Shown here: piece by piece, positions 1 to 41,093 of the stretch
How the letters are laid out: each line of letters opens with the position of its first letter
Numbering within the stretch: position 1 is the first letter of the stretch
Source: a virus
Taxonomy: Duplodnaviria; Caudoviricetes
Virus record (IMG/VR): IMGVR_UViG_3300044695_004869
Strand: one strand, 5' to 3'
DNA length: 64,000 nt
Position numbers and translations under genes: made by a program
The notes under the pieces: generated by a model
Told to the model about the DNA's origin: nothing
Databases searched by the model: none
Seen by the model: only the letters and a program-made list of their open reading frames with translations

Positions 1-3000
1 AATTATGTTGTGTGACCCAAGATAATGTACCTGTTGGGTTGTTATATGTCACAATTAATTTAGGTGAAACTCCGGGAATATATAAAATATCACCAGAAAC
101 ATATCTATTAGAAACTAAAGGAAATAAAATTGTTAAAACCGGTGAGGCTAAATTTGTGACATCAACGGTGAAAAAATTAGCTGATGAACCTAAAGGAAAA
201 GTAAATTGACTTATCAACACCGTGTTATCATTTATTACCCCTAATCCGGCTCCTGAGGTAAACGGTAATTGAGTTACCGTAGATCCGGTTGGTGAAATTG
301 CAAATGGACATGGAGTATAATCAAAAATTCTTAAATTAATCCCACCATTTGTAAAAATTCTATTAGTTGTATGTGCAATGTCCGCACCACCACCAGCAAA
401 AGGTGGGAAATATTGAGTTAAATTAGTTATTGTATTTGTATTTTGATTATATGATACAATAGATCCGAGACCTGATAAACTACCATTAAATAAAATACTA
501 CAATCTTCCAAACAAGGTAATCCTCCGGTTGGAGTTACCGTTGGGGTTGATGTGTTAGTGGGAGTATTGGTTGGGGTTGGTGGTGGATCTGTTGGGGTAA
601 CGGTTGGGGTTGGGGTTGTTGTTGGTGTGGCTTGAGGTACAGTAAATTCTAATGTTATACAATCAGGACTTTGACCCGAATCAAAAGACCTAATTTGTAA
701 AAAGTTTCCAAGATAAGAAGTCGTGTATGGTGGTGAAGTTTGTATTGTATAAAGTTCACCAGTAAAAGATCCAATATAAAAAAAATTATTCCATTGGAAA
801 AATGATTGAATGTAAGTTGTTATTGGAATTGGTATGTCTATTTGTGGTTGCCAAGACCCACCAACATAATGAAATTGTGTCACATATTTTTGATTTGTTG
901 TTGTGTCAAATCCTATGGTAATCATTTTACCGTTGTTATTCATAACAACTTCACTTATTTGTCTATCATTTGATAAATTACTTAATTGATATAATATAGT
1001 TTTGGACCAAATAGGCCCACTAATATCCACCAATACAATATCAAAACCTGTGTTACCGAATCCCATAGATACTAATAAATTAGGGTTAACGATATTTGTT
1101 ATTGGATCTCTATACACACATAATGCACCCGCCAACCAACCTAATGATGGGATAGCGCTTGGAGATGCGATGTCTCTAGACCATACCGCACTCCAAGGGT
1201 TTAATGTAATATCCCATTCTCTTATTCCTTGAGAAGCGTCTTGACATATCCATAATTTTGTTGATGTATTTGTCATGCTTTGCCCAAGTACATTTAAGGA
1301 TTGGGGTAAATTAAGAAATGTTGTTGTATTTAAGGATGGGTTATACACATATAAACCAACACTTGTTGGTTGAGAGGTATCCAACCTTGTCATTATTAGA
1401 GGAAGACAATCCACATTAACAAATTCTGATGTTGGAGTCGGGGTTGGTGTTGGTGTTGGAGTTGGAGTTACACATGGATTACAAAATACGAATAAATCAC
1501 AAGTGTTTGTACAAGAATTATAAACGTAACCATCAGGACAAGAATATCCGGTTTCAAGATAATCACCATTTTCATTCTGAACTACATTTGATTGTGGTAC
1601 ACCACTCGATGTAAAAATAATATTCAAGTCATTTAATGTTGTTGCATTTACTAAATCAGATAAGGTATTGTCGTAAATTTCACAACCAAAAGCGGCTTGT
1701 CCCCCGTCATTCCAACCATATAGTTCAACCACATGATCCCCCGCATTTAATGTGATAGGGTAAACATTCCATCTTGTGAAAGGGTAATTAGCACCATACC
1801 AAGATGAAGTTGCTAATTTTGTATTCACAATAACATTACCATCCAAAACTAATTTAAAATGATTATCTGCGGCTACACCTATGTAATAAGTTTTTGTTTC
1901 TGATATGTTTATACAAGTACTAAATCCAAGCCACGTATTCAAAGGAATGTATGATGGTGAACTTGTCCAAATACCACATCTATTTAATGGTCCTGATGAT
2001 GTTGAAGATGTTGTATTTTTCCAAAGATTTGGTGTATTAATTACCGTATATAAACCATCGGTAATTGATGTTACGAAACCATTGATTGTGTAGTTTGGGT
2101 TGTACACATAAGTACCAAACCCCGAATAACTACTATATGGTCTTGGAATTAAATCATATTGTGATGTTGGTGGTGTCGATTCAATAGATGATATTGTATA
2201 ACAAGTTGTAGCATTATATGCACTATACGATGGCCCACACTGAACTTCACAATCTAATTCACAAATTGGAGTTGTTGGAGTCATAGTTGGTGTTGGAGTT
2301 GATGTTGGTGCAGGTTGTATTGAATCGCTACATATATCAACAATTGTACCCGCTTCACTACCAGGACCTGTTATGGTTAGTGTGGTAAAAGGTGAAGAGT
2401 TTGAGATTGTAAATGTTCCTCCACCATTTTGAGGATCTGGTGAACCTGATGGACAATATGTTGCGGTAACCACATTTCCATTTATTGTGGCACAACAATA
2501 ATCACAAGAAGATAAAACAGGATTTCCCGTGTTTGTTGTAAACGTAAACGATTCCGCACCTAAAGTACTAATACTATAATTAATTAATCTTATGACTATA
2601 TTATTTACAGGAGAACTAAAGTTTAATATGTATGTAAAAGATGTATTGGAAATTGAACTACCTAAAAACACTGTATTTGTTGCCGATCCCGGTGGTGTCA
2701 TACACCAAGCAAGAACTCCACCGAATGTTGTTGATAGAACATCACCAAAACCAGATGCGGTTATTGTTACACCATTTACAATTGTTGAAGATCCCAAACC
2801 AGGTAAGGAACTAACTGATTCACATATTGGACAAACAGGAGTGGGGGTTGGAGTTGGTGGGATCTGAGTTGGTGTTGCTGTTGGGGTTGTAATAAAAGTT
2901 GTTGTGGGTGTTGGTGTGGGGGTAACATCACCACAAGGGTAATCTATTGTACATGGACCACAACCACTTAATTGTTCCGTTAATTTATCGAATTCTATTA

Positions 3001-3421
3001 CTAATGTTGGGGTAGATGCCGAAGTGGCTATGGTAACACACCCCGTAAATTGTGCCGACTCAACATAATATGAATTACTTGATAATGGAAAAAAGTCAGG
3101 TGGAACATCTGTTATTTGAATTATTTCATTTGAATTACAACAAGATACAAATATTGCAACTCCGGGTAATGGACAGGCTCCTATTGATACATCAAAAATT
3201 GCATCTGAACATACGTTGTTCGGGTCGTAAATATACCAACCTGTGTCAGGAAATGAGTCACTATCCGTTGATCTTGGTTCACCACAGAAAATACCTTCCC
3301 AACCAATCATTTCCCAATAACCATTTATATTCCATCTAATTGTTAATGGAGTTGCATTATCGTATGCAACCCAAGAAGGTTTTGAGTTATAAAAACCAAT
3401 AAAATTAAAATCATAATTCAT
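1..3421 (-). CDS. Large modular Pro/Thr-linker, Cys-rich putative virion surface protein (partial, runs off left edge, at least 1140 aa)
   Basis: Not in the ORF track. I translated it manually: ATG at 3421 (MNYDFNFIGFYNSKPSW...) and no stop in that frame down to position 2. It has TPTPT linkers between beta-rich modules (e.g. YYIGVAADNHFKLVLDG, and a module shared with 37277..41074). Confidence 0.85.
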   Translation of the reverse strand, partial: MNYDFNFIGFYNSKPSWVAYDNATPLTIRWNINGYWEMIGWEGIFCGEPRSTDSDSFPDTGWYIYDPNNVCSDAIFDVSIGACPLPGVAIFVSCCNSNEIIQITDVPPDFFPLSSNSYYVESAQFTGCVTIATSASTPTLVIEFDKLTEQLSGCGPCTIDYPCGDVTPTPTPTTTFITTPTATPTQIPPTPTPTPVCPICESVSSLPGLGSSTIVNGVTITASGFGDVLSTTFGGVLAWCMTPPGSATNTVFLGSSISNTSFTYILNFSSPVNNIVIRLINYSISTLGAESFTFTTNTGNPVLSSCDYCCATINGNVVTATYCPSGSPDPQNGGGTFTISNSSPFTTLTITGPGSEAGTIVDICSDSIQPAPTSTPTPTMTPTTPICELDCEVQCGPSYSAYNATTCYTISSIESTPPTSQYDLIPRPYSSYSGFGTYVYNPNYTINGFVTSITDGLYTVINTPNLWKNTTSSTSSGPLNRCGIWTSSPSYIPLNTWLGFSTCINISETKTYYIGVAADNHFKLVLDGNVIVNTKLATSSWYGANYPFTRWNVYPITLNAGDHVVELYGWNDGGQAAFGCEIYDNTLSDLVNATTLNDLNIIFTSSGVPQSNVVQNENGDYLETGYSCPDGYVYNSCTNTCDLFVFCNPCVTPTPTPTPTPTPTSEFVNVDCLPLIMTRLDTSQPTSVGLYVYNPSLNTTTFLNLPQSLNVLGQSMTNTSTKLWICQDASQGIREWDITLNPWSAVWSRDIASPSAIPSLGWLAGALCVYRDPITNIVNPNLLVSMGFGNTGFDIVLVDISGPIWSKTILYQLSNLSNDRQISEVVMNNNGKMITIGFDTTTNQKYVTQFHYVGGSWQPQIDIPIPITTYIQSFFQWNNFFYIGSFTGELYTIQTSPPYTTSYLGNFLQIRSFDSGQSPDCITLEFTVPQATPTTTPTPTVTPTDPPPTPTNTPTNTSTPTVTPTGGLPCLEDCSILFNGSLSGLGSIVSYNQNTNTITNLTQYFPPFAGGGADIAHTTNRIFTNGGINLRIFDYTPCPFAISPTGSTVTQLPFTSGAGLGVINDNTVLISQFTFPLGSSANFFTVDVTNLASPVLTILFPLVSNRYVSGDILYIPGVSPKLIVTYNNPTGTLSWVTQHN

Positions 3422-3447: not shown

Positions 3448-5352
3448 TTAACTACTAATAAATGTAAGTAAATTACTCGTTATCTGTCCACCACCAGCGG
3501 CTGGTGTTAAAAATGCGGTAATGGATATTCTATATGTATGACCCGGAGGACAAGGACCACCATATCCATTTGGATTAACCGCGCTCGGGAACCAATCCGT
3601 CTGTTGTATTGTTGCTCCTGCTTGCCATCCAGTAGGTCCGCTTGCCCAAAAATTTATCGATGTTTGAGTAGGTGGTATGTTTGTAACTTTCCAATGTACA
3701 AAATAACCATTTGGACTTGTTCCTCCGGCGTTTATATCTTCCATTAATAAACTATAACTAATAACATCGTTTGTTGTAAAATTAGTTAAAGACCAACCTA
3801 ACCCAACACTATAGTTTAGTCCACCACAAAGAGGGTGTTTAACCACAGAACTTAATGTTTGCCCATTTAAGAATTGAGGACTCTGAACCAATATGCTTTT
3901 CGCTCCAAAATTTGCACCTCCACATGGGGTTTGTGTCATTGTAGTCCCTATCTGATAATAATAATTATTTTGACAGGTTGTTGCGGTTGTGGGGTTCAAA
4001 CCGGGTAAAGTTATTGTATTGATTGATTGTGGATTAACCATAGGTGCATTTCCTCCCATCCACGCTTTTATACCTAATTCATTTGCAACGTCATCAATAC
4101 GACAAGCATAACCCAACCAATTATTGTAAGTTCCCGTAAATGTAAATACATTTTGAGGTCCACTTGTTACAGGATATGAAGGAATACTATTTCCCGCAAA
4201 AACTAAACCAATTACTTTAAAGTTTGGTGATGCTTGAGTACCAAAATTTGCGATAAGAATTGACCCCGAATCTCCCGCCGCACATGGCCATAAACAATGA
4301 GGTTGGGCGGGATTTCCACTTGGTTTATAAAATGCAATCAATCTGTTATCGAAAGATGCGTTTGTACCATACTGATTACCTCCAGAAATATGCCATTTAT
4401 ATCCACCAACCGTTTGGAATTGGTTTATCCCAAATAATCTTAACTCACAACCTGGTGTTCCTAAACCTTTTGGACCTGTTGATCTTCCAGTACTATATAA
4501 TTGTGGGTTAGTGACCATCAAATTATCAATTTCTGCTGTCGTTGCAAAAGGTAACGGAGAAGTCATCAAAGATTCAAATCCCGAAAATTTCCACGATTGA
4601 TTGAAATCTATTTTATTACAATCAATACTAACTAATGCTCCATCTACTCTGTTTTTGGGAACTAAAGAAGGTGAGGGGGACGAAATTCCGACGGTTAAGT
4701 TAATAGAACTATTTGGAACTAAAGGCACATATCTTACAACTTGACCATATTTTAAATTTGTTTGGAAACCGAATTCGCCTGGTTGACAAGAAAAATTGCT
4801 ATTTGGAAAAACTTCATTTGTTGTTGGGAAATTATTTCCTAAGAAAGCATTTAAATTTTGGTATTGGGCAGCAATTGAGTTACCAATAACAACGTGATTA
4901 TTAGTTAAACCAACCAATGCATTTGTATGAATGTCTTGAACTATCATCCCTAATGTTCCGACAGAATTACTTTGATTAACGGAAGTTATCGATATTCCAC
5001 CCTTTAGTGTTGCAAATGCGGATCTGTTTGTTGGTGCAGTCAAAATAAATGGTTCACAAATGGGTGGTGGGTTAGTAACGGGTGTTGTTCTACTACATTG
5101 TAATGCGTAAACCTCACCAACTTGTATTACATCAGTTTTAAGTGTTAAATTATCGTTTATATTTATTTCTGAAGGTAATATCTCATCTTCAGATAATTCT
5201 GATAATGGTTTTTTTTCTTTAACGGTAAAGGATATACAAATTTCACCAGTATATACACCGCCAGTTTGTTTGAAAGAATACCCAACACCAATATCGGATG
5301 GTGTTTTATCAGCCCATTCTTGAAGTTTTTTATTTATTTCATTTGTTATCAT
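3448..5352 (-). CDS. NAL1-like trypsin-fold serine protease fused to a C-terminal PEBP/YbhB-like domain
   Basis: Triad motifs GLTNNHVV (His), RVDGALV (Asp), AAGDSGS (Ser). N-terminal GVGYSFKQTGG...KKPLSEL...TDVIQVG is typical of NAL1-like proteases. C-terminus SYSLLMEDINA...FVHWKVTNIP...GYGGPCPPGHTY matches PEBP/YbhB motifs. Confidence 0.8.
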   Translation of the reverse strand: MITNEINKKLQEWADKTPSDIGVGYSFKQTGGVYTGEICISFTVKEKKPLSELSEDEILPSEININDNLTLKTDVIQVGEVYALQCSRTTPVTNPPPICEPFILTAPTNRSAFATLKGGISITSVNQSNSVGTLGMIVQDIHTNALVGLTNNHVVIGNSIAAQYQNLNAFLGNNFPTTNEVFPNSNFSCQPGEFGFQTNLKYGQVVRYVPLVPNSSINLTVGISSPSPSLVPKNRVDGALVSIDCNKIDFNQSWKFSGFESLMTSPLPFATTAEIDNLMVTNPQLYSTGRSTGPKGLGTPGCELRLFGINQFQTVGGYKWHISGGNQYGTNASFDNRLIAFYKPSGNPAQPHCLWPCAAGDSGSILIANFGTQASPNFKVIGLVFAGNSIPSYPVTSGPQNVFTFTGTYNNWLGYACRIDDVANELGIKAWMGGNAPMVNPQSINTITLPGLNPTTATTCQNNYYYQIGTTMTQTPCGGANFGAKSILVQSPQFLNGQTLSSVVKHPLCGGLNYSVGLGWSLTNFTTNDVISYSLLMEDINAGGTSPNGYFVHWKVTNIPPTQTSINFWASGPTGWQAGATIQQTDWFPSAVNPNGYGGPCPPGHTYRISITAFLTPAAGGGQITSNLLTFISS

Positions 5353-5362
5353 TATATTTTTT

Positions 5363-6991
5363 TTAACAACTTATATTAGGTATTATGGAGAATGAATCAA
5401 ATTGAACTATAACACCATTATTATCGGTTTTAACCATATAAAGATTTTGTAAATTATTACATAAACCCGCTTGGGTTGGATCGTAAATAAACCTCGTATT
5501 TGTTTGGGGTGGATATATACCTGATCCGTTAGGAGTAAAACCATAAATTGTTACACCTAACGCCGGTGGACTATAACATCTTTTGGTCATTCCTTGAACT
5601 TGGGATGTAACGTTACAATTAGTCAAGAAACAAGCGTAAGTGTTAAGTTGACATTTTATTAAACTATCACTTATAGAAGATGGGTTTGTTATAACAACAT
5701 TAGAACCATTACAAACAAGATTATAACCTGTTTGAAATGAGAATGGATTTGGTATAAGATTTCCTCTTGTTGGTGTTGGTGTTGGAGTTTTAGTTGGTGT
5801 TGGAGTTGGTAATGGGTTATTACAATCATATACCTCAAATGAAACAAATGACGTAAATGGACCAACCGCAGCATTAATAGGTGTTCGAGTTGGAGTTTTA
5901 GTTGGTGTTGGTGTTGGAGTTTTAGTTGGGGTTGGAGTTAATCCAAATGTTTTACTTGGTGTTGGTGTTGGTGTTTTGGTTGGTGTTGTTGTTTTAGTTG
6001 GTGTATTTGTAGGAGTTGGAGATAAACCAGGAGTAGGTGTTGGAGTTTTAGTAGGGGTTGGTGTTAATCCTTGTGTTGGGGTTGGAGTTTGTGTTGGTGT
6101 TTGTGTTGGTGTTTTTGTTGGAGTTATAGTATTTGTAGGAGTTATTGTTGGAGTATTTGTTGGAGTTGGTGTTGGAGCAACCGGATCACAAGTACAAACA
6201 CTTTGAAGATATGTGGTACCATTACCTGTAAGTTTAGTAACAGATAATGCACATAATGTTGATGCAAAATCAGTTGAAGCACTGATTGTTGTTGTATTTC
6301 CAGAACAATCTAAATAACTAAATGTTGATCCTGTCACATCTGTACCACCATAATAATACCAAGTATTACAACAAGGTATTGGTGTAGAACTTGGGGTTAA
6401 AGTTGGAGTTGGAGTTGGAGTTGATGTTTGTACAAAAATTTCCATACAAAATTCATCAATAGGTACAGGTTCTGGCGCAAATGGACTCGGAGCAGGAGTT
6501 CTTGTTGGTGTAGGAGTTGGTGTGTCTTGAGGACAACAACATTCGGTTGTTGTCGTTGTTGTTGTTGGACAAACATTATTACAACATGGGAATTCTATTA
6601 GGTAACAATCTTCATATGGTAAATCTTCCGCAATAAAACTTTCTTGCACATTAATAAATAATTGTTCTCTTATTGGTAATATTAAAACACCTTGAGAATT
6701 TCTTAATAAAAATTGAGCCTCATATCTTGCGGTTTTATTTGTATCTTGTGGTTTAAATTGATAATATATATAATATTCAGGTTCAGCGTTTGGATCCATA
6801 AGTTCTTTCTCAACAAATCCAGCAGGGCTTGTTGAGATTTTAGGGATCCCGGTTTCAACATTTGTCATTGAAAAGAAGATTGCGGACTCTTCGATCATAT
6901 CCATGAAAGAATTGTAATCGCTTCTACCGTCTTTTACAACCTGTAATTTTAATATAGGGAGAGTAGCATTCTTTTTAATGAAAAATTCCAT
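5363..6991 (-). CDS. Putative structural protein: BppU-like N-terminal domain plus Pro/Thr-rich mucin-like linkers
   Basis: N-terminal [16 protein letters not shown]...YYQF...[12 protein letters not shown] resembles baseplate-upper-type Ig-like domains. Long (TP)n tracts and CC doublets follow. Confidence 0.55.
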
Positions 6992-7004: not shown

Positions 7005-7012
7005 TATAAATA
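7005..7012 (-). promoter_or_regulatory. TATTTATA motif (putative late promoter element)
   Basis: 13 nt upstream of the ATG at 6991. The same motif recurs upstream of many structural genes. Confidence 0.55.
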
Positions 7013-7029
7013 TGCGGAACTACTAAATA

Positions 7030-8703
7030 TTAACATTCTTTTCTTAAAGAACCATCATAATGATCAAATCTATTATGTTCTGTCGGTGTTGATAATAAAA
7101 TACCTGATTTAATATTACCTTTTACCGTTTCTTGATAACAATGACTCATTAATGTTTGTTCATATGGGTTTTGGAATTTTGTTTTTAAATAACAATTATA
7201 ATTTCCTTCCTTAGACATTAATATTGGCCAATTAGATAAATAAATTTCTCCCGAAGCGTAAGGTACATTTCTATAAGATTTTATATGTTTAAATTCTAAA
7301 TTTGGTGAATTTGGGTCTAATCCCTGTTGAGGTAATTTAGGGTTATTTGGCCAATGAGATTCTCTAAATTCTTGAGGTACATTGTACCAAGCCCATTGTT
7401 TGTCGTGGGAACCATAAAACTCACTGAAGTTTAATTTTAAAAAATCAAAATTTTCATTTTTTAGAATGTCTAATGTTATGTCAAATATATTTTTAATATA
7501 TCTATTAAAACCATTTCTACAAGTTAAATCACCACCATTGTAAAAAAACATATCATCTTCAAAAAAATAATAATACCCTAAATCTTTTTGTTCATCAAAA
7601 TGTTCGGCAATAAATTGTCTACCACCAGTTATTCCGATGTTATCCTTTTTTATATGTTCAAACCCATATTCATTACATAATTTAATGTATTCATCTGTAG
7701 TTGTTAAATCGGTAGAATTATTTAAAAGAAATTTTTTAGTTTCATTAATAAATTTAGGGTCGTATTCTAACATTGAATTAATTAGAGTTCTAAATTGATT
7801 TGGAGAATTAAATGTAATAACATATACAGCAATATCACTACCCGTGTTTTTTACTTTAGGTTTTCTATTTTTATTTAAAATAACAACATCATCATTCTTG
7901 ACATCCTCAAAGAATTTATATAATAAACCATTACTTTCTATTTGACAATAATCAATTAATTGTGGGTTTTGATATAATAATATTGTGAATAAACTTTCTT
8001 CCGTACCCATATATCCTTTATTTAAAGTTTCAATAAGTAGGTTATAATATAAGACATTTATTTCGGCTATTGTATGTTTATCACCACCAAAAAAACCTCC
8101 TCTCGCAACAATATTTGGTTCAGAATTAGTTAATCTTTTCATTTCATTATATTCAAAACCATGTACTTCATTTTCCGCATCATATGGAAAACAAACAAAT
8201 AAAAAATTATTTGTTAATATTTTTATTTTATCCATTACTTTATCGTGAGTAAAGTAACCCCAATGAACAGTATTAGTTATTCCCGCATCTATCCAATAAA
8301 GTGAATCGGAATTAAATTTATCTAATATCCTTGCATCATTTAACAAAAACATTTTAGACATAACTAAAGGATTATACATTTCTAATCTTGCCTGTGTGGA
8401 ATCTTTTAACCATCCCGAAAGAGTATACCAACTTTCGTTTAATCTAATTTTTTGTATTTTTTCGTAATATTCATTATTTTTGAACCAATCAACACTTCTA
8501 ACTATAAATTGAGTATTATCTTCATTTCTAAATGTTTTGGCATACTCAATAACTTCTTGGTCACCAAAGATTATTAAATTACCATCATATTGTAAAAGGT
8601 CTTTGAATTTTTCTAAATATGTGTCAAAAGATCTTGACCATCCTTCAGTTAAATTACCTCTTCCGATATTCCATAAACCGGTTACTAATGTTGTGTTTTT
8701 CAT
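7030..8703 (-). CDS. HtrL/YibB-family domain fused to a GT2-like glycosyltransferase domain
   Basis: TLVTGLWNIGRG...YWIDAG...RGGFFGG...MGTEE (HtrL-like). C-terminal VYVITFNS...NIGITGGRQ...YYFFEDD (GT-A). Confidence 0.65.
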   Translation of the reverse strand: MKNTTLVTGLWNIGRGNLTEGWSRSFDTYLEKFKDLLQYDGNLIIFGDQEVIEYAKTFRNEDNTQFIVRSVDWFKNNEYYEKIQKIRLNESWYTLSGWLKDSTQARLEMYNPLVMSKMFLLNDARILDKFNSDSLYWIDAGITNTVHWGYFTHDKVMDKIKILTNNFLFVCFPYDAENEVHGFEYNEMKRLTNSEPNIVARGGFFGGDKHTIAEINVLYYNLLIETLNKGYMGTEESLFTILLYQNPQLIDYCQIESNGLLYKFFEDVKNDDVVILNKNRKPKVKNTGSDIAVYVITFNSPNQFRTLINSMLEYDPKFINETKKFLLNNSTDLTTTDEYIKLCNEYGFEHIKKDNIGITGGRQFIAEHFDEQKDLGYYYFFEDDMFFYNGGDLTCRNGFNRYIKNIFDITLDILKNENFDFLKLNFSEFYGSHDKQWAWYNVPQEFRESHWPNNPKLPQQGLDPNSPNLEFKHIKSYRNVPYASGEIYLSNWPILMSKEGNYNCYLKTKFQNPYEQTLMSHCYQETVKGNIKSGILLSTPTEHNRFDHYDGSLRKEC

Positions 8704-37248: not shown

Positions 37249-37256
37249 TATAAATA
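37249..37256 (-). promoter_or_regulatory. TATTTATA motif
   Basis: 4 nt upstream of the ATG at 37244. Confidence 0.4.
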
Positions 37257-41085: not shown

Positions 41086-41093
41086 TATAAATA
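41086..41093 (-). promoter_or_regulatory. TATTTATA motif (putative late promoter element)
   Basis: 11 nt upstream of the ATG at 41074. Confidence 0.5.

What the first reader, a model, noticed from the sequence alone, without database searches (positions are those of the whole stretch)
3448..5352. NAL1-like serine protease fused to a PEBP/YbhB domain inside a virion-protein operon
Seen: an intact His/Asp/Ser triad (TNNHV, VDGAL, GDSGS), a NAL1-type N-terminal domain, and a C-terminal domain with PEBP hallmarks (D-x-x-A, HW-x-V-x-NIP, GY-x-GPCPP, H-x-Y). Established: several PEBP proteins inhibit serine proteases or carboxypeptidases (mammalian PEBP1, yeast Tfs1). I know of no described protease-PEBP fusion. 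Inference: a self-inhibited or ligand-gated protease. It could mature the giant surface proteins or cut host S-layer or biofilm protein.
Basis: partly seen in the sequence, partly recalled or inferred. Interest (0 to 1): 0.7.

Follow-up and report, generated by a model that had tools for sequence, protein, structure and literature searches.

The report
Phage NAL1-like protease with PEBP tail
An uncultured lake phage encodes an apparently active plant-NAL1-type serine protease fused to a PEBP domain. That PEBP type otherwise sits at the tips of phage tail fibres, so it more likely aims the protease at a target than switches it off.

Summary
A 634-aa ORF on the minus strand (3448-5352) has every quoted motif. 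His153, Asp237 and Ser362 are invariant in 105 homologues. Its model (pLDDT 82) matches rice NAL1 over residues 1-436 (Z 26.4), well above alpha-lytic protease (Z 17). Residues 484-634 are a YbcL-type PEBP domain (Pfam 46 bits against a 24-bit cut-off).

The fusion is conserved in about 48 sequence clusters of T4-like lake phages, and all domains are under purifying selection. I found no paper that describes it.

The proposed mechanism, self-inhibition, is not what comparison favours:
- Most of the listed relatives of the protease lack PEBP.
- In all 24 long relatives the protease is the N-terminal head, followed by lectin, propeller, cadherin or Ig modules.
- The closest relatives of this PEBP domain (39-40% identity) are the C-terminal domains of T7-type tail fibres.
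- None of 49 other long PEBP proteins carries this protease.

My best reading (about 0.5) is an active endopeptidase held on a host-envelope or fibre ligand by a swappable binding module. Built-in inhibition remains possible (about 0.15).

The scan noted this same stretch once more in an overlapping window, and a protease-only relative in another genome.

The parts
3448..5352 (-). Whole ORF, 634 aa plus stop (P0001): NAL1-like serine protease fused to a PEBP domain
5098..5352 (-). Residues 1-85: one helix and four strands, equivalent to the NAL1 ATP-binding domain (Pfam NAL1_N). The protein starts where NAL1 residue 93 aligns
   Evidence: VIA alignment of model 1-436 to NAL1 93-450. Profile hit to NAL1 over positions 22-151. 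Sub-threshold NAL1_N hits in homologues. phrog_20754 'protease' matches aa 18-160
5014..5097 (-). Residues 86-113: low-confidence linker with family-invariant Cys86 and Cys99 and the conserved N-R motif
   Evidence: pLDDT below 50 at residues 87-95; invariant columns
4045..5013 (-). Residues 114-436: S1 (chymotrypsin-fold) protease domain, about 120 residues longer than alpha-lytic protease
   Evidence: VIA Z 17, rmsd 2.5 A over 193 of 198 residues of alpha-lytic protease (model 114-433); Z 26 to NAL1
4894..4896 (-). Catalytic His153 codon (TNNHV)
   Evidence: Invariant in 105 sequences. Aligned to the TNRHV His of NAL1. Codon checked
4642..4644 (-). Catalytic Asp237 codon (VDGAL)
   Evidence: Invariant; codon checked
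4267..4269 (-). Catalytic Ser362 codon (GDSGS)
   Evidence: Invariant. Aligned to NAL1 EGDSGS. GDSG is kept in all 24 long relatives
3904..4044 (-). Residues 437-483: family-wide C-terminal beta-hairpin with Cys460 and Cys477; this is the end of the conserved core, and protease-only relatives stop about here. A short variable linker follows
3451..3903 (-). Residues 484-634: YbcL-type PEBP domain. Rim residues Asp539, His553 and His605 plus Tyr607 are kept. Asn541 and Thr606 replace the Asp-Arg salt-bridge pair. Cys509 and Cys601 are conserved
   Evidence: Pfam PF01161 at 46.2 bits. Profile against 1fux, E 2.2e-6, with alignment. Foldseek 1fux E 4.7e-6. Invariant columns
5363..6991 (-). Upstream co-oriented gene, 10 nt away: 542-aa protein rich in PT linkers and Cys (context)
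2..3421 (-). Downstream co-oriented gene, 26 nt away: giant protein of more than 1140 aa with PT linkers, running off the window (context). Weakly related to the giant protein downstream of a protease-only relative

Best explanation
The gene encodes a catalytically competent serine endopeptidase of the NAL1 type: an ATP-binding-domain-like module followed by an S1-fold protease with the triad His153/Asp237/Ser362.

It belongs to a large, mainly phage family built to one rule. The protease is always the N-terminal head. The C-terminus is a swappable cassette: nothing, an Ig-like domain plus PT linker plus small Cys module, lectins, beta-propellers, cadherin, or, in this lineage, a YbcL-type PEBP domain.

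The same PEBP subtype forms the C-terminal end of T7-type tail fibres. I therefore read the PEBP domain as a binding (targeting) module. It would hold the protease on a small anionic or glycan-type ligand, either on the host envelope or on the phage's own glycosylated fibres, much as carbohydrate-binding modules hold secreted hydrolases on their substrate.

Shown here: the domain identities, triad conservation, purifying selection, the modular rule, the kinship of this PEBP with fibre C-terminal PEBPs, and the conserved position among giant fibre-like proteins.

Inferred, not shown: proteolytic activity; action outside the cytoplasm (virion-borne or released at lysis); the ligand; the substrate (host surface protein, or neighbouring fibre proteins).
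For: Fold and triad:
- NAL1 is the best structural match: Z 26.4 over model 1-436, against Z 17 for alpha-lytic protease.
- NAL1 is also the best PDB profile match, with its His and Ser motifs aligned.
- His153, Asp237 and Ser362 are invariant in 105 sequences.

Modular rule:
- Among the 120 best relatives, 62 are protease-only proteins of 400-450 aa. About 48 clusters carry PEBP. Others carry an Ig-like domain, PT linker and small Cys module.
- In 24 relatives of 1125-2411 aa the protease sits at residues 2-430 in 23 of them; in the other (P0293) it is split, about 3-170 and 666-845. All keep GDSG. Their tails hold DUF285, DUF642, YNCE, RCC1 or BNR propellers, FGE-sulfatase, Laminin_G_3 or cadherin.
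- Laminin G3 and C-type-lectin-fold domains are known virion fibre adhesion modules of jumbo phages (PMC7824862).

Kinship of the PEBP domain:
- A profile of the domain against 1.84 billion representatives gave 727 hits, 67 at E<=1e-10, most of them inside long proteins.
- The top non-self hits are tail fibres with the Phage_T7_tail N-terminal domain and one or two C-terminal PEBP domains. These are 39-40% identical to this domain, against 24% (Foldseek) for YbcL.
- Some proteins carry 2-4 tandem PEBP copies, and none of the 49 long ones has this protease.
- One Peptidase_S8 and one Peptidase_M66 protein also carry the module.
- The pocket rim (Asp539, His553, His605) is conserved.

Context:
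- In seven distinct loci the protease lies next to a protein of over 1000 aa, or one gene away from it, in a glycosyltransferase island, which lies next to DNA polymerase B in the T4-like lake phages L001, L015 and L016.
- Protease-only forms occupy the same island in related phages.
- The alternative C-terminal modules recur in the neighbouring giants, for example 35% identity over 126 aa with the window's 1265-aa Laminin_G_3 protein.

Selection:
- dN/dS is 0.10-0.19 in every domain.
Against: - No direct evidence that the protein is in virions or acts outside the cell. It has no signal peptide and no recognised virion-attachment domain.
- The PEBP domain follows a short linker of roughly 8-13 residues, not the long PT linkers seen in other variants. 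It could therefore pack against the protease.
- It is as conserved as the protease domain, which is unlike fast-evolving receptor-binding tips.
- PEBP proteins do inhibit serine proteases in other systems (SsCEI, PMC3360023).
- Two of the five PEBP signature residues are replaced, so classical ligand binding may be altered.
- The position of PEBP relative to the active site is unknown to me, because no coordinates or PAE were available.
Confidence: 0.5

Rival explanations
1. Self-inhibited or ligand-gated protease. The PEBP domain folds back onto the catalytic cleft and keeps the enzyme silent until a ligand in the PEBP pocket, or a cleavage event, releases it.
For: PEBP-family proteins inhibit serine proteases or carboxypeptidase in trans: the archaeal SsCEI inhibits chymotrypsin, elastase and acylpeptide hydrolase (PMC3360023). 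PEBP1 and Tfs1 rest on my own knowledge. The linker before PEBP is short. PEBP is as constrained as the protease. pTM 0.73 for the whole chain allows some fixed inter-domain packing.
Against: Most family members have no PEBP and no separate PEBP gene within 8 kb, so the protease does not need it for control. The C-terminus is a cassette of binding-type modules. The nearest relatives of this PEBP are tail-fibre C-terminal domains and tandem arrays in proteins without this protease.
Confidence: 0.15
2. Intracellular fibre-maturation protease. It trims or processes the neighbouring giant PT-linker or collagen-like proteins during assembly. PEBP, or the other C-terminal modules, recognise those substrates, and the enzyme need not be in the virion.
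For: The gene is tightly packed, with 10 and 26 nt gaps, between co-oriented giant-protein genes. Adjacency to proteins of over 1000 aa, or one gene away from them, is conserved in seven loci. The downstream giants of distant relatives are weakly homologous (27% over 272 aa, E 5e-12). The C-terminal modules of the protease are shared with the neighbours, for example the RCC1 tail beside RCC1 giants and the Ig-like module.
Against: No cleavage site or processed form is known. PEBP does not occur in any neighbouring gene of this window or its relatives, so module-matching does not apply here. Conserved Cys pairs and lectin-type tails fit an extracellular role better.
Confidence: 0.2
3. Protease-headed short fibre. 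The NAL1-like head mainly serves as a trimerising and attachment domain, and PEBP is the true receptor-binding tip. Catalysis would be used only for self-processing, or would be vestigial.
For: The pattern of a conserved N-terminus with a variable C-terminus is that of phage receptor-binding proteins. NAL1 forms trimers through its ABD and protease domains (PMC12012508). PEBP forms the C-terminal end of T7-type fibres.
Against: The triad and the GDSG motif are invariant across the whole family, including all long fusions. That argues for selected catalysis. Oligomeric state was not tested, and the hexamer-forming N-terminal segment of NAL1 is absent.
Confidence: 0.1
4. A host-takeover or conflict protease that acts on cytoplasmic host proteins, unrelated to the virion.
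For: Jumbo phages carry patchily distributed peptidases thought to be used against the host (PMC7824862). There is no signal peptide.
Against: The position in a fibre and glycosylation island, the lectin, cadherin and PT-linker partners, and the conserved Cys pairs.
Confidence: 0.05

Closest known systems
Rice NARROW LEAF 1 (NAL1) serine protease (PDB 7Y77, 8PMG, 8HAU; Pfam NAL1_N and Nal1_C)
   Same: Two-domain core of an ATP-binding-domain-like module plus an S1-fold protease, with His-Asp-Ser in the same order. Best structural match (Z 26.4, rmsd 3.5 A, 319 residues; Foldseek E 1.3e-14). Best PDB profile match (E 0.002).
   Different: Only about 16% identity. Below both Pfam cut-offs. Lacks the NAL1 N-terminal segment (aa 1-88) that builds the hexameric cage (PMC12012508). 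Carries a Cys hairpin and a PEBP domain instead of the NAL1 C-terminal region (beyond residue 458), which is outside the solved constructs. Phage-encoded. ATP binding and oligomeric state are unknown.
Alpha-lytic protease / Streptomyces griseus proteases (MEROPS S1E, secreted bacterial enzymes)
   Same: Protease core superposes at Z 17, rmsd 2.5 A, over 193 of 198 residues.
   Different: About 120 extra residues of insertions. The N-terminal domain is of NAL1 type. Whether it is cleaved off like a pro-region is unknown.
E. coli YbcL / YbhB bacterial PEBP (PDB 1FUX)
   Same: PEBP fold and motifs. The rim Asp, both His, and both Cys align. Foldseek E 4.7e-6, TM 0.61.
   Different: YbcL is a stand-alone protein. 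Here the domain is fused, and the second Asp and the Arg of the five-residue PEBP signature are Asn541 and Thr606.
PEBP-type protease inhibitors (mammalian PEBP1, yeast Tfs1, Sulfolobus SsCEI)
   Same: A PEBP fold paired with a serine-type peptidase.
   Different: Those act in trans on unrelated proteases. No inhibition, docking or reactive site was shown here, and comparative evidence favours a binding module.
T7-type phage tail fibres with C-terminal PEBP domains (metagenomic P0124, P0125, P0139; phrog_5139)
   Same: PEBP domains 39-40% identical to this one, placed at the C-terminal end, single or in tandem.
   Different: Their N-terminus is the T7 gp17-type tail adaptor, not a protease. 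As far as I could find they are also undescribed.
Modular secreted hydrolases with carbohydrate-binding modules, and phage depolymerase tailspikes
   Same: Works like these: a catalytic domain plus interchangeable binding modules, with PT linkers in sister variants.
   Different: The catalytic domain is a protease at the N-terminus. No virion anchor has been identified and the substrate is unknown.

Membership tests
NAL1-like serine proteases | S1 chymotrypsin-fold protease domain with a His-Asp-Ser triad | tested here: met
   Z 26.4 to NAL1 and Z 17 to alpha-lytic protease. His153, Asp237 and Ser362 invariant in 105 sequences. His and Ser motifs aligned to NAL1.
NAL1-like serine proteases | NAL1_N / ATP-binding-domain module directly before the protease domain | tested here: met
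   Model residues 1-436 align to NAL1 93-450, including the ABD at NAL1 89-172. Profile alignment covers positions 22-151.
NAL1-like serine proteases | Reaches the Pfam gathering score for NAL1_N (27 bits) or Nal1_C (26.1 bits) | tested here: not met
   No hit for the whole protein. Nal1_C 10.9 bits for residues 1-480. Homologues score 12-25.5 bits for NAL1_N. It is a distant structural relative, not a Pfam member.
NAL1-like serine proteases | N-terminal segment (NAL1 aa 1-88) whose strand builds the D3 hexameric cage needed for activity | tested here: not met
   The protein begins at the equivalent of NAL1 residue 93. The role of this segment is taken from PMC12012508.
NAL1-like serine proteases | Trimer or hexamer assembly and ATP binding | not testable with these tools
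   Three copies exceed the size limit of the complex predictor, and no coordinates were available.
PEBP (Pfam PF01161) | Pfam gathering score and PEBP fold | tested here: met
   46.2 bits against 24. 1fux by profile, E 2.2e-6. 1fux by Foldseek, E 4.7e-6, TM 0.61.
PEBP (Pfam PF01161) | Three rim residues of the anion pocket (FT numbering D71, H87, H118; PMC8793217) | tested here: met
   Asp539, His553 and His605 align to them. Asp539 and His605 are invariant and His553 is at least 90% conserved in the fusion family.
PEBP (Pfam PF01161) | Salt-bridge pair of the signature quintet (D73-R119) | tested here: not met
   Asn541 and Thr606 occupy these positions. The Arg is also absent from the fibre PEBP domains.
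PEBP-type protease inhibitors | Measured inhibition of, or a defined interface with, a protease active site | not testable with these tools
   Needs enzyme assays or a structure. Only precedent from the literature is available.
Phage fibre C-terminal / adhesion modules | The domain type recurs at the C-terminal end of bona fide tail-fibre proteins | tested here: met
   P0124, P0125 and P0139 carry the Phage_T7_tail N-terminal domain plus C-terminal PEBP. P0124 also matches many PHROG tail-fibre families. Identity to this domain is 39-40%.
Phage fibre C-terminal / adhesion modules | This protein is a virion component that binds the host | not tested
   No proteome or binding data. Inferred from context only.
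Phage prohead maturation proteases (S77 T4 gp21, S78, S80 types) | Sequence match to a prohead protease family, and a gene among the head genes | tested here: not met
   No Pfam or PHROG prohead-protease hit. The fold is S1, and the gene lies in a fibre and glycosylation island. The search for a separate gp21 in related contigs was uninformative.

The most novel reading that the evidence does not exclude
A virion-borne proteolytic spike. A trimeric NAL1-type protease head carries fibre-tip-type PEBP modules, docks on a host envelope ligand, and digests a proteinaceous surface layer (S-layer, pili, outer-membrane or cell-wall protein) to open the way for infection. It would be one member of a whole phage family of protease heads with swappable receptor-binding tails. 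This would be a protein-degrading counterpart of polysaccharide depolymerase tailspikes. It would also give the prokaryotic PEBP fold a first clear role as a receptor-binding domain.
Probability: 0.2. Interest if true: 0.8.

Novelty: new variant of a known kind. Interest (0 to 1): 0.6.

Why it matters
- It places close structural relatives of the plant yield gene NAL1 in phages, as a large modular family.
- It shows a domain architecture (S1 protease plus PEBP) that surveys of PEBP fusions did not list (PMC8793217).
- It suggests what bacterial-type PEBP domains may do in viruses. They sit at the C-terminal ends of tail fibres and behave like shuffled binding modules, which gives a testable handle on the long-unclear function of prokaryotic PEBPs.
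- If the protease is virion-borne, it would be a rare case of a phage using a targeted protease at the cell surface.

Tried and rejected
- Complex prediction on protease (1-480) against PEBP (484-634) gave 'no answer' (score 0.00). This is no evidence either way.
- No model coordinates or PAE reach the Python box, so docking of PEBP on the active site could not be examined.
- phmmer of the single sequence against PDB found nothing.
- tblastn and megablast against 50,697 deposited phage genomes found no match. No cultured phage in that collection carries a close relative.
- No whole genome is held for the window.
- The search for a T4 gp21-type prohead protease in two related IMG/VR contigs was uninformative. 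The contigs are 30-44% complete and the control rang nowhere.
- Cluster look-up gave no source names beyond 'hypothetical protein'.
- The T4 late-promoter motif TATAAATA is not enriched (17 matches against 14 expected), and none lies upstream of this gene on its strand.
- No separate PEBP gene lies within 8 kb of protease-only relatives, so there is no split form.
- Literature searches for NAL1 in phages or cyanobacteria, PEBP in phages, and PEBP in tail fibres found nothing relevant.
- I considered a prohead maturation protease and rejected it (wrong fold, wrong place).
- I first suspected a cyanobacterial or SAR11 genomic island. I rejected that because relatives carry DNA polymerase B, T4 gp13 and T4 RNA ligase next to the island.
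Full report
**Observation**

The reported coordinates hold an intact ORF on the minus strand (3448-5352, 634 aa, P0001). The plus-strand frame is full of stops. All quoted motifs are present, and I checked the codon positions of the key residues. The gene lies 10 nt after a co-oriented 542-aa gene and 26 nt before a co-oriented gene of more than 1140 aa. It belongs to a run of at least a dozen minus-strand genes.

**Domain identities**

Pfam finds only PF01161 (PBP/PEBP) at residues 509-618, E 7.6e-12, 46.2 bits against a 24-bit cut-off. PHROGs finds phrog_20754 'protease' at residues 18-160 and phrog_5139 (unknown function) over the PEBP part.

An AlphaFold2 model built on a 105-sequence alignment has mean pLDDT 82.2 and pTM 0.73.
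- Foldseek against the PDB returns 34 chains of rice NAL1 first (E down to 1.3e-14). Next come alpha-lytic protease and Streptomyces griseus proteases (about 3e-6). For the C-terminus it returns E. coli YbcL 1FUX (4.7e-6, TM 0.61) and a Chlamydia PEBP.
- A second alignment of those hits gives NAL1 Z 26.4 (rmsd 3.5 A, 319 residues, model 1-436 against NAL1 93-450). Alpha-lytic protease gives Z 17 (model 114-433, rmsd 2.5 A over 193 of 198 residues).
- So the match includes the NAL1-specific domain that precedes the protease, which the NAL1 papers call the ATP-binding domain (aa 89-172) (PMC12012508).
- A sequence profile of the family also finds NAL1 as the best solved relative (E about 0.002). 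TNNHV aligns to the NAL1 catalytic His motif and GDSGS to EGDSGS.

The curated Pfam NAL1 models are not reached. There is no hit for the query, and homologues score 12-25.5 bits against a 27-bit cut-off. The NAL1 N-terminal segment that builds the active hexamer is absent. I therefore call the protein NAL1-like by fold and architecture, not a Pfam member.

His153, Asp237 and Ser362 are invariant in 105 sequences down to about 37% identity. So are Cys86, Cys99, Cys302, Cys353 and Cys477.

**The PEBP domain**

A profile of the domain finds YbcL (E 2.2e-6). The alignment shows three things:
- Asp539, His553 and His605 sit at the three pocket-rim positions.
- Asn541 and Thr606 replace the Asp-Arg pair that completes the five-residue PEBP signature described in PMC8793217.
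- Both Cys (509 and 601) align with Cys of YbcL.

All four parts of the protein are under purifying selection in comparisons with IMG/VR relatives, with dN/dS of 0.10-0.19.

**What genome this is**

The window has about 30% G+C. It holds glycosyltransferases, sugar-nucleotide enzymes and giant Laminin_G_3, PT-linker or collagen-like proteins.

No whole genome is held, and there is no match in deposited phage genomes. In close relatives from lake metagenomes and IMG/VR, the same island abuts DNA polymerase B, a T4 gp13 homologue and Fe-SOD. More distant relatives sit in contigs of 170-320 kb with T4 RNA ligase and the same GlcNAc-type glycosyltransferase. This is an uncultured T4-like large lake phage, as earlier notes of this scan also say.

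**How widespread the fusion is**

A search of 5.8 billion proteins gives 954 hits. About 48 clusters (44-100% identity) have the full protease-PEBP architecture. JGI annotates them only as 'PEBP family uncharacterized protein'. After those come hundreds of protease-only proteins of about 410-440 aa, and forms of 550-670 aa with other C-termini.

At 50% clustering the fusion makes up just two representatives. It is one lineage's variant of a large family. Atlas look-alikes are 94-100% viral, and related bacterial clusters carry Nal1_C, NAL1_N or Trypsin_2. The best BFVD match is an uncharacterised protein of a metagenomic virus.

**Evidence on mechanism**

Three comparisons bear on what PEBP does here.

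(i) The C-terminus of this protease family is a cassette.
- Sister proteins end right after the Cys460-Cys477 hairpin, or add an Ig-like domain, a PT linker and a small Cys module.
- Those modules recur in the neighbouring giant proteins. One example is 35% identity over 126 aa with the window's 1265-aa Laminin_G_3 protein.
- A search among longer proteins found 24 of 1125-2411 aa. In 23 the protease occupies residues about 2-430; in P0293 it is split, about 3-170 and 666-845. All keep GDSG. It is followed by DUF285, DUF642, YNCE, RCC1 or BNR propellers, FGE-sulfatase (C-type-lectin fold), Laminin_G_3, cadherin or CarboxypepD_reg domains.
- Laminin G3 and C-type-lectin-fold domains are the adhesion modules that a survey of jumbo phages assigns to fibres and virion decorations (PMC7824862).
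- One RCC1-tailed protease sits beside RCC1-rich proteins of 1884 and 4821 aa.

(ii) The nearest relatives of this PEBP domain are not stand-alone PEBPs.
- An exhaustive profile search gave 727 hits, 67 at E<=1e-10. Most lie at the C- or N-terminus of long proteins, some in 2-4 tandem copies.
- Of 49 long ones, 7 carry the Phage_T7_tail N-terminal adaptor domain. Two carry Fibritin_C, one a Collar domain, one Peptidase_S8 and one Peptidase_M66.
- The two best non-self hits (E about 1e-52) are tail fibres with a T7-type N-terminus and two C-terminal PEBP domains. Those domains are 39-40% identical to this one. One of them sits after three genes of 772-1159 aa in podovirus-like order.
- None of the 49 contains this protease.

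(iii) Protease-only relatives have no separate PEBP gene within 8 kb. The protease therefore works without PEBP in most phages.

**Reading**

Together these make PEBP one more interchangeable binding module on an active protease head. This is the logic of secreted hydrolases with carbohydrate-binding modules, and of receptor-binding proteins with swappable tips.

The conserved pocket rim suggests a small polar or anionic ligand. Conserved Cys pairs, PT linkers in sister forms and the fibre and glycosylation island suggest work outside the reducing cytoplasm. All of these points are inference.

I put this reading at about 0.5. A fibre-maturation protease gets about 0.2. It is favoured by the tight and conserved adjacency to giant proteins, and by weak homology between the downstream giants of distant relatives. 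Built-in inhibition gets about 0.15; it rests on precedent such as SsCEI (PMC3360023), on the short linker and on equal constraint across domains. A mainly structural protease head gets about 0.1, and a host-takeover protease about 0.05.

**Novelty**

- The 2022 survey of PEBP/YbhB fusions lists only fusions with carbohydrate-enzyme modules, mainly in Actinobacteria with some in Proteobacteria, and mentions giant viruses, not phages or proteases (PMC8793217).
- NAL1 papers discuss plants only.
- Searches for NAL1 in phages, PEBP in phages, or PEBP in tail fibres found nothing relevant.

I rate the finding a new variant of known kinds. The family-level rule (protease head plus swappable tails) and the fibre-end PEBP domains are the more interesting by-products.

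**Limits**

- Activity, oligomeric state, ATP binding, ligand, substrate and virion association are all untested.
- The geometry of PEBP relative to the active site could not be read with these tools.

Noticed in passing
L018:8001-10310 (P0124); also P0125 and P0139 (L019:1228-3732): T7-type tail fibres from metagenomes end in one or two PEBP domains (phrog_5139, 'unknown function'). PEBP as a fibre C-terminal domain seems undescribed. Other proteins carry 2-4 tandem PEBP copies, or an N-terminal PEBP followed by 500-850 unannotated residues.
   Followed up: partly
P0276-P0299 (for example L020:10001-13627, L021:10001-13702): 24 proteins of 1125-2411 aa start with the same NAL1-like protease and continue with lectin, propeller, cadherin or LRR-like modules. 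In L021 the tail module (RCC1) matches the giant neighbouring proteins.
   Followed up: partly
window 5363-6991 (-) and 2-3421 (-): The flanking proteins are chains of small Cys-rich modules joined by long (PT)n linkers. Similar small Cys modules and an Ig-like module form the C-termini of sister proteases, so these genes seem to exchange modules.
   Followed up: partly
window 5014-5097 (-), residues 86-113: The junction between the N-terminal domain and the protease domain is poorly predicted (pLDDT below 50 at residues 87-95) but carries two family-invariant Cys and a conserved N-R motif. Alpha-lytic-type proteases are cut at a comparable pro-region junction, so this could be an autoprocessing site.
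   Followed up: no
window 13344-14591 (-) and 7030-8703 (-); L001, L014-L016, L020: A GlcNAc-type glycosyltransferase (PF11397) travels with the protease in all five of these phage loci, and an HtrL_YibB-domain protein in four of them (not seen in L020), so the island is a conserved unit.
   Followed up: partly
window 7005-7012, 16461-16468, 37249-37256, 41086-41093 (+): TATAAATA lies on the plus strand in four short spacers between minus-strand genes. The motif is not enriched in the window overall (17 against 14 expected), and its meaning there is unclear.
   Followed up: no
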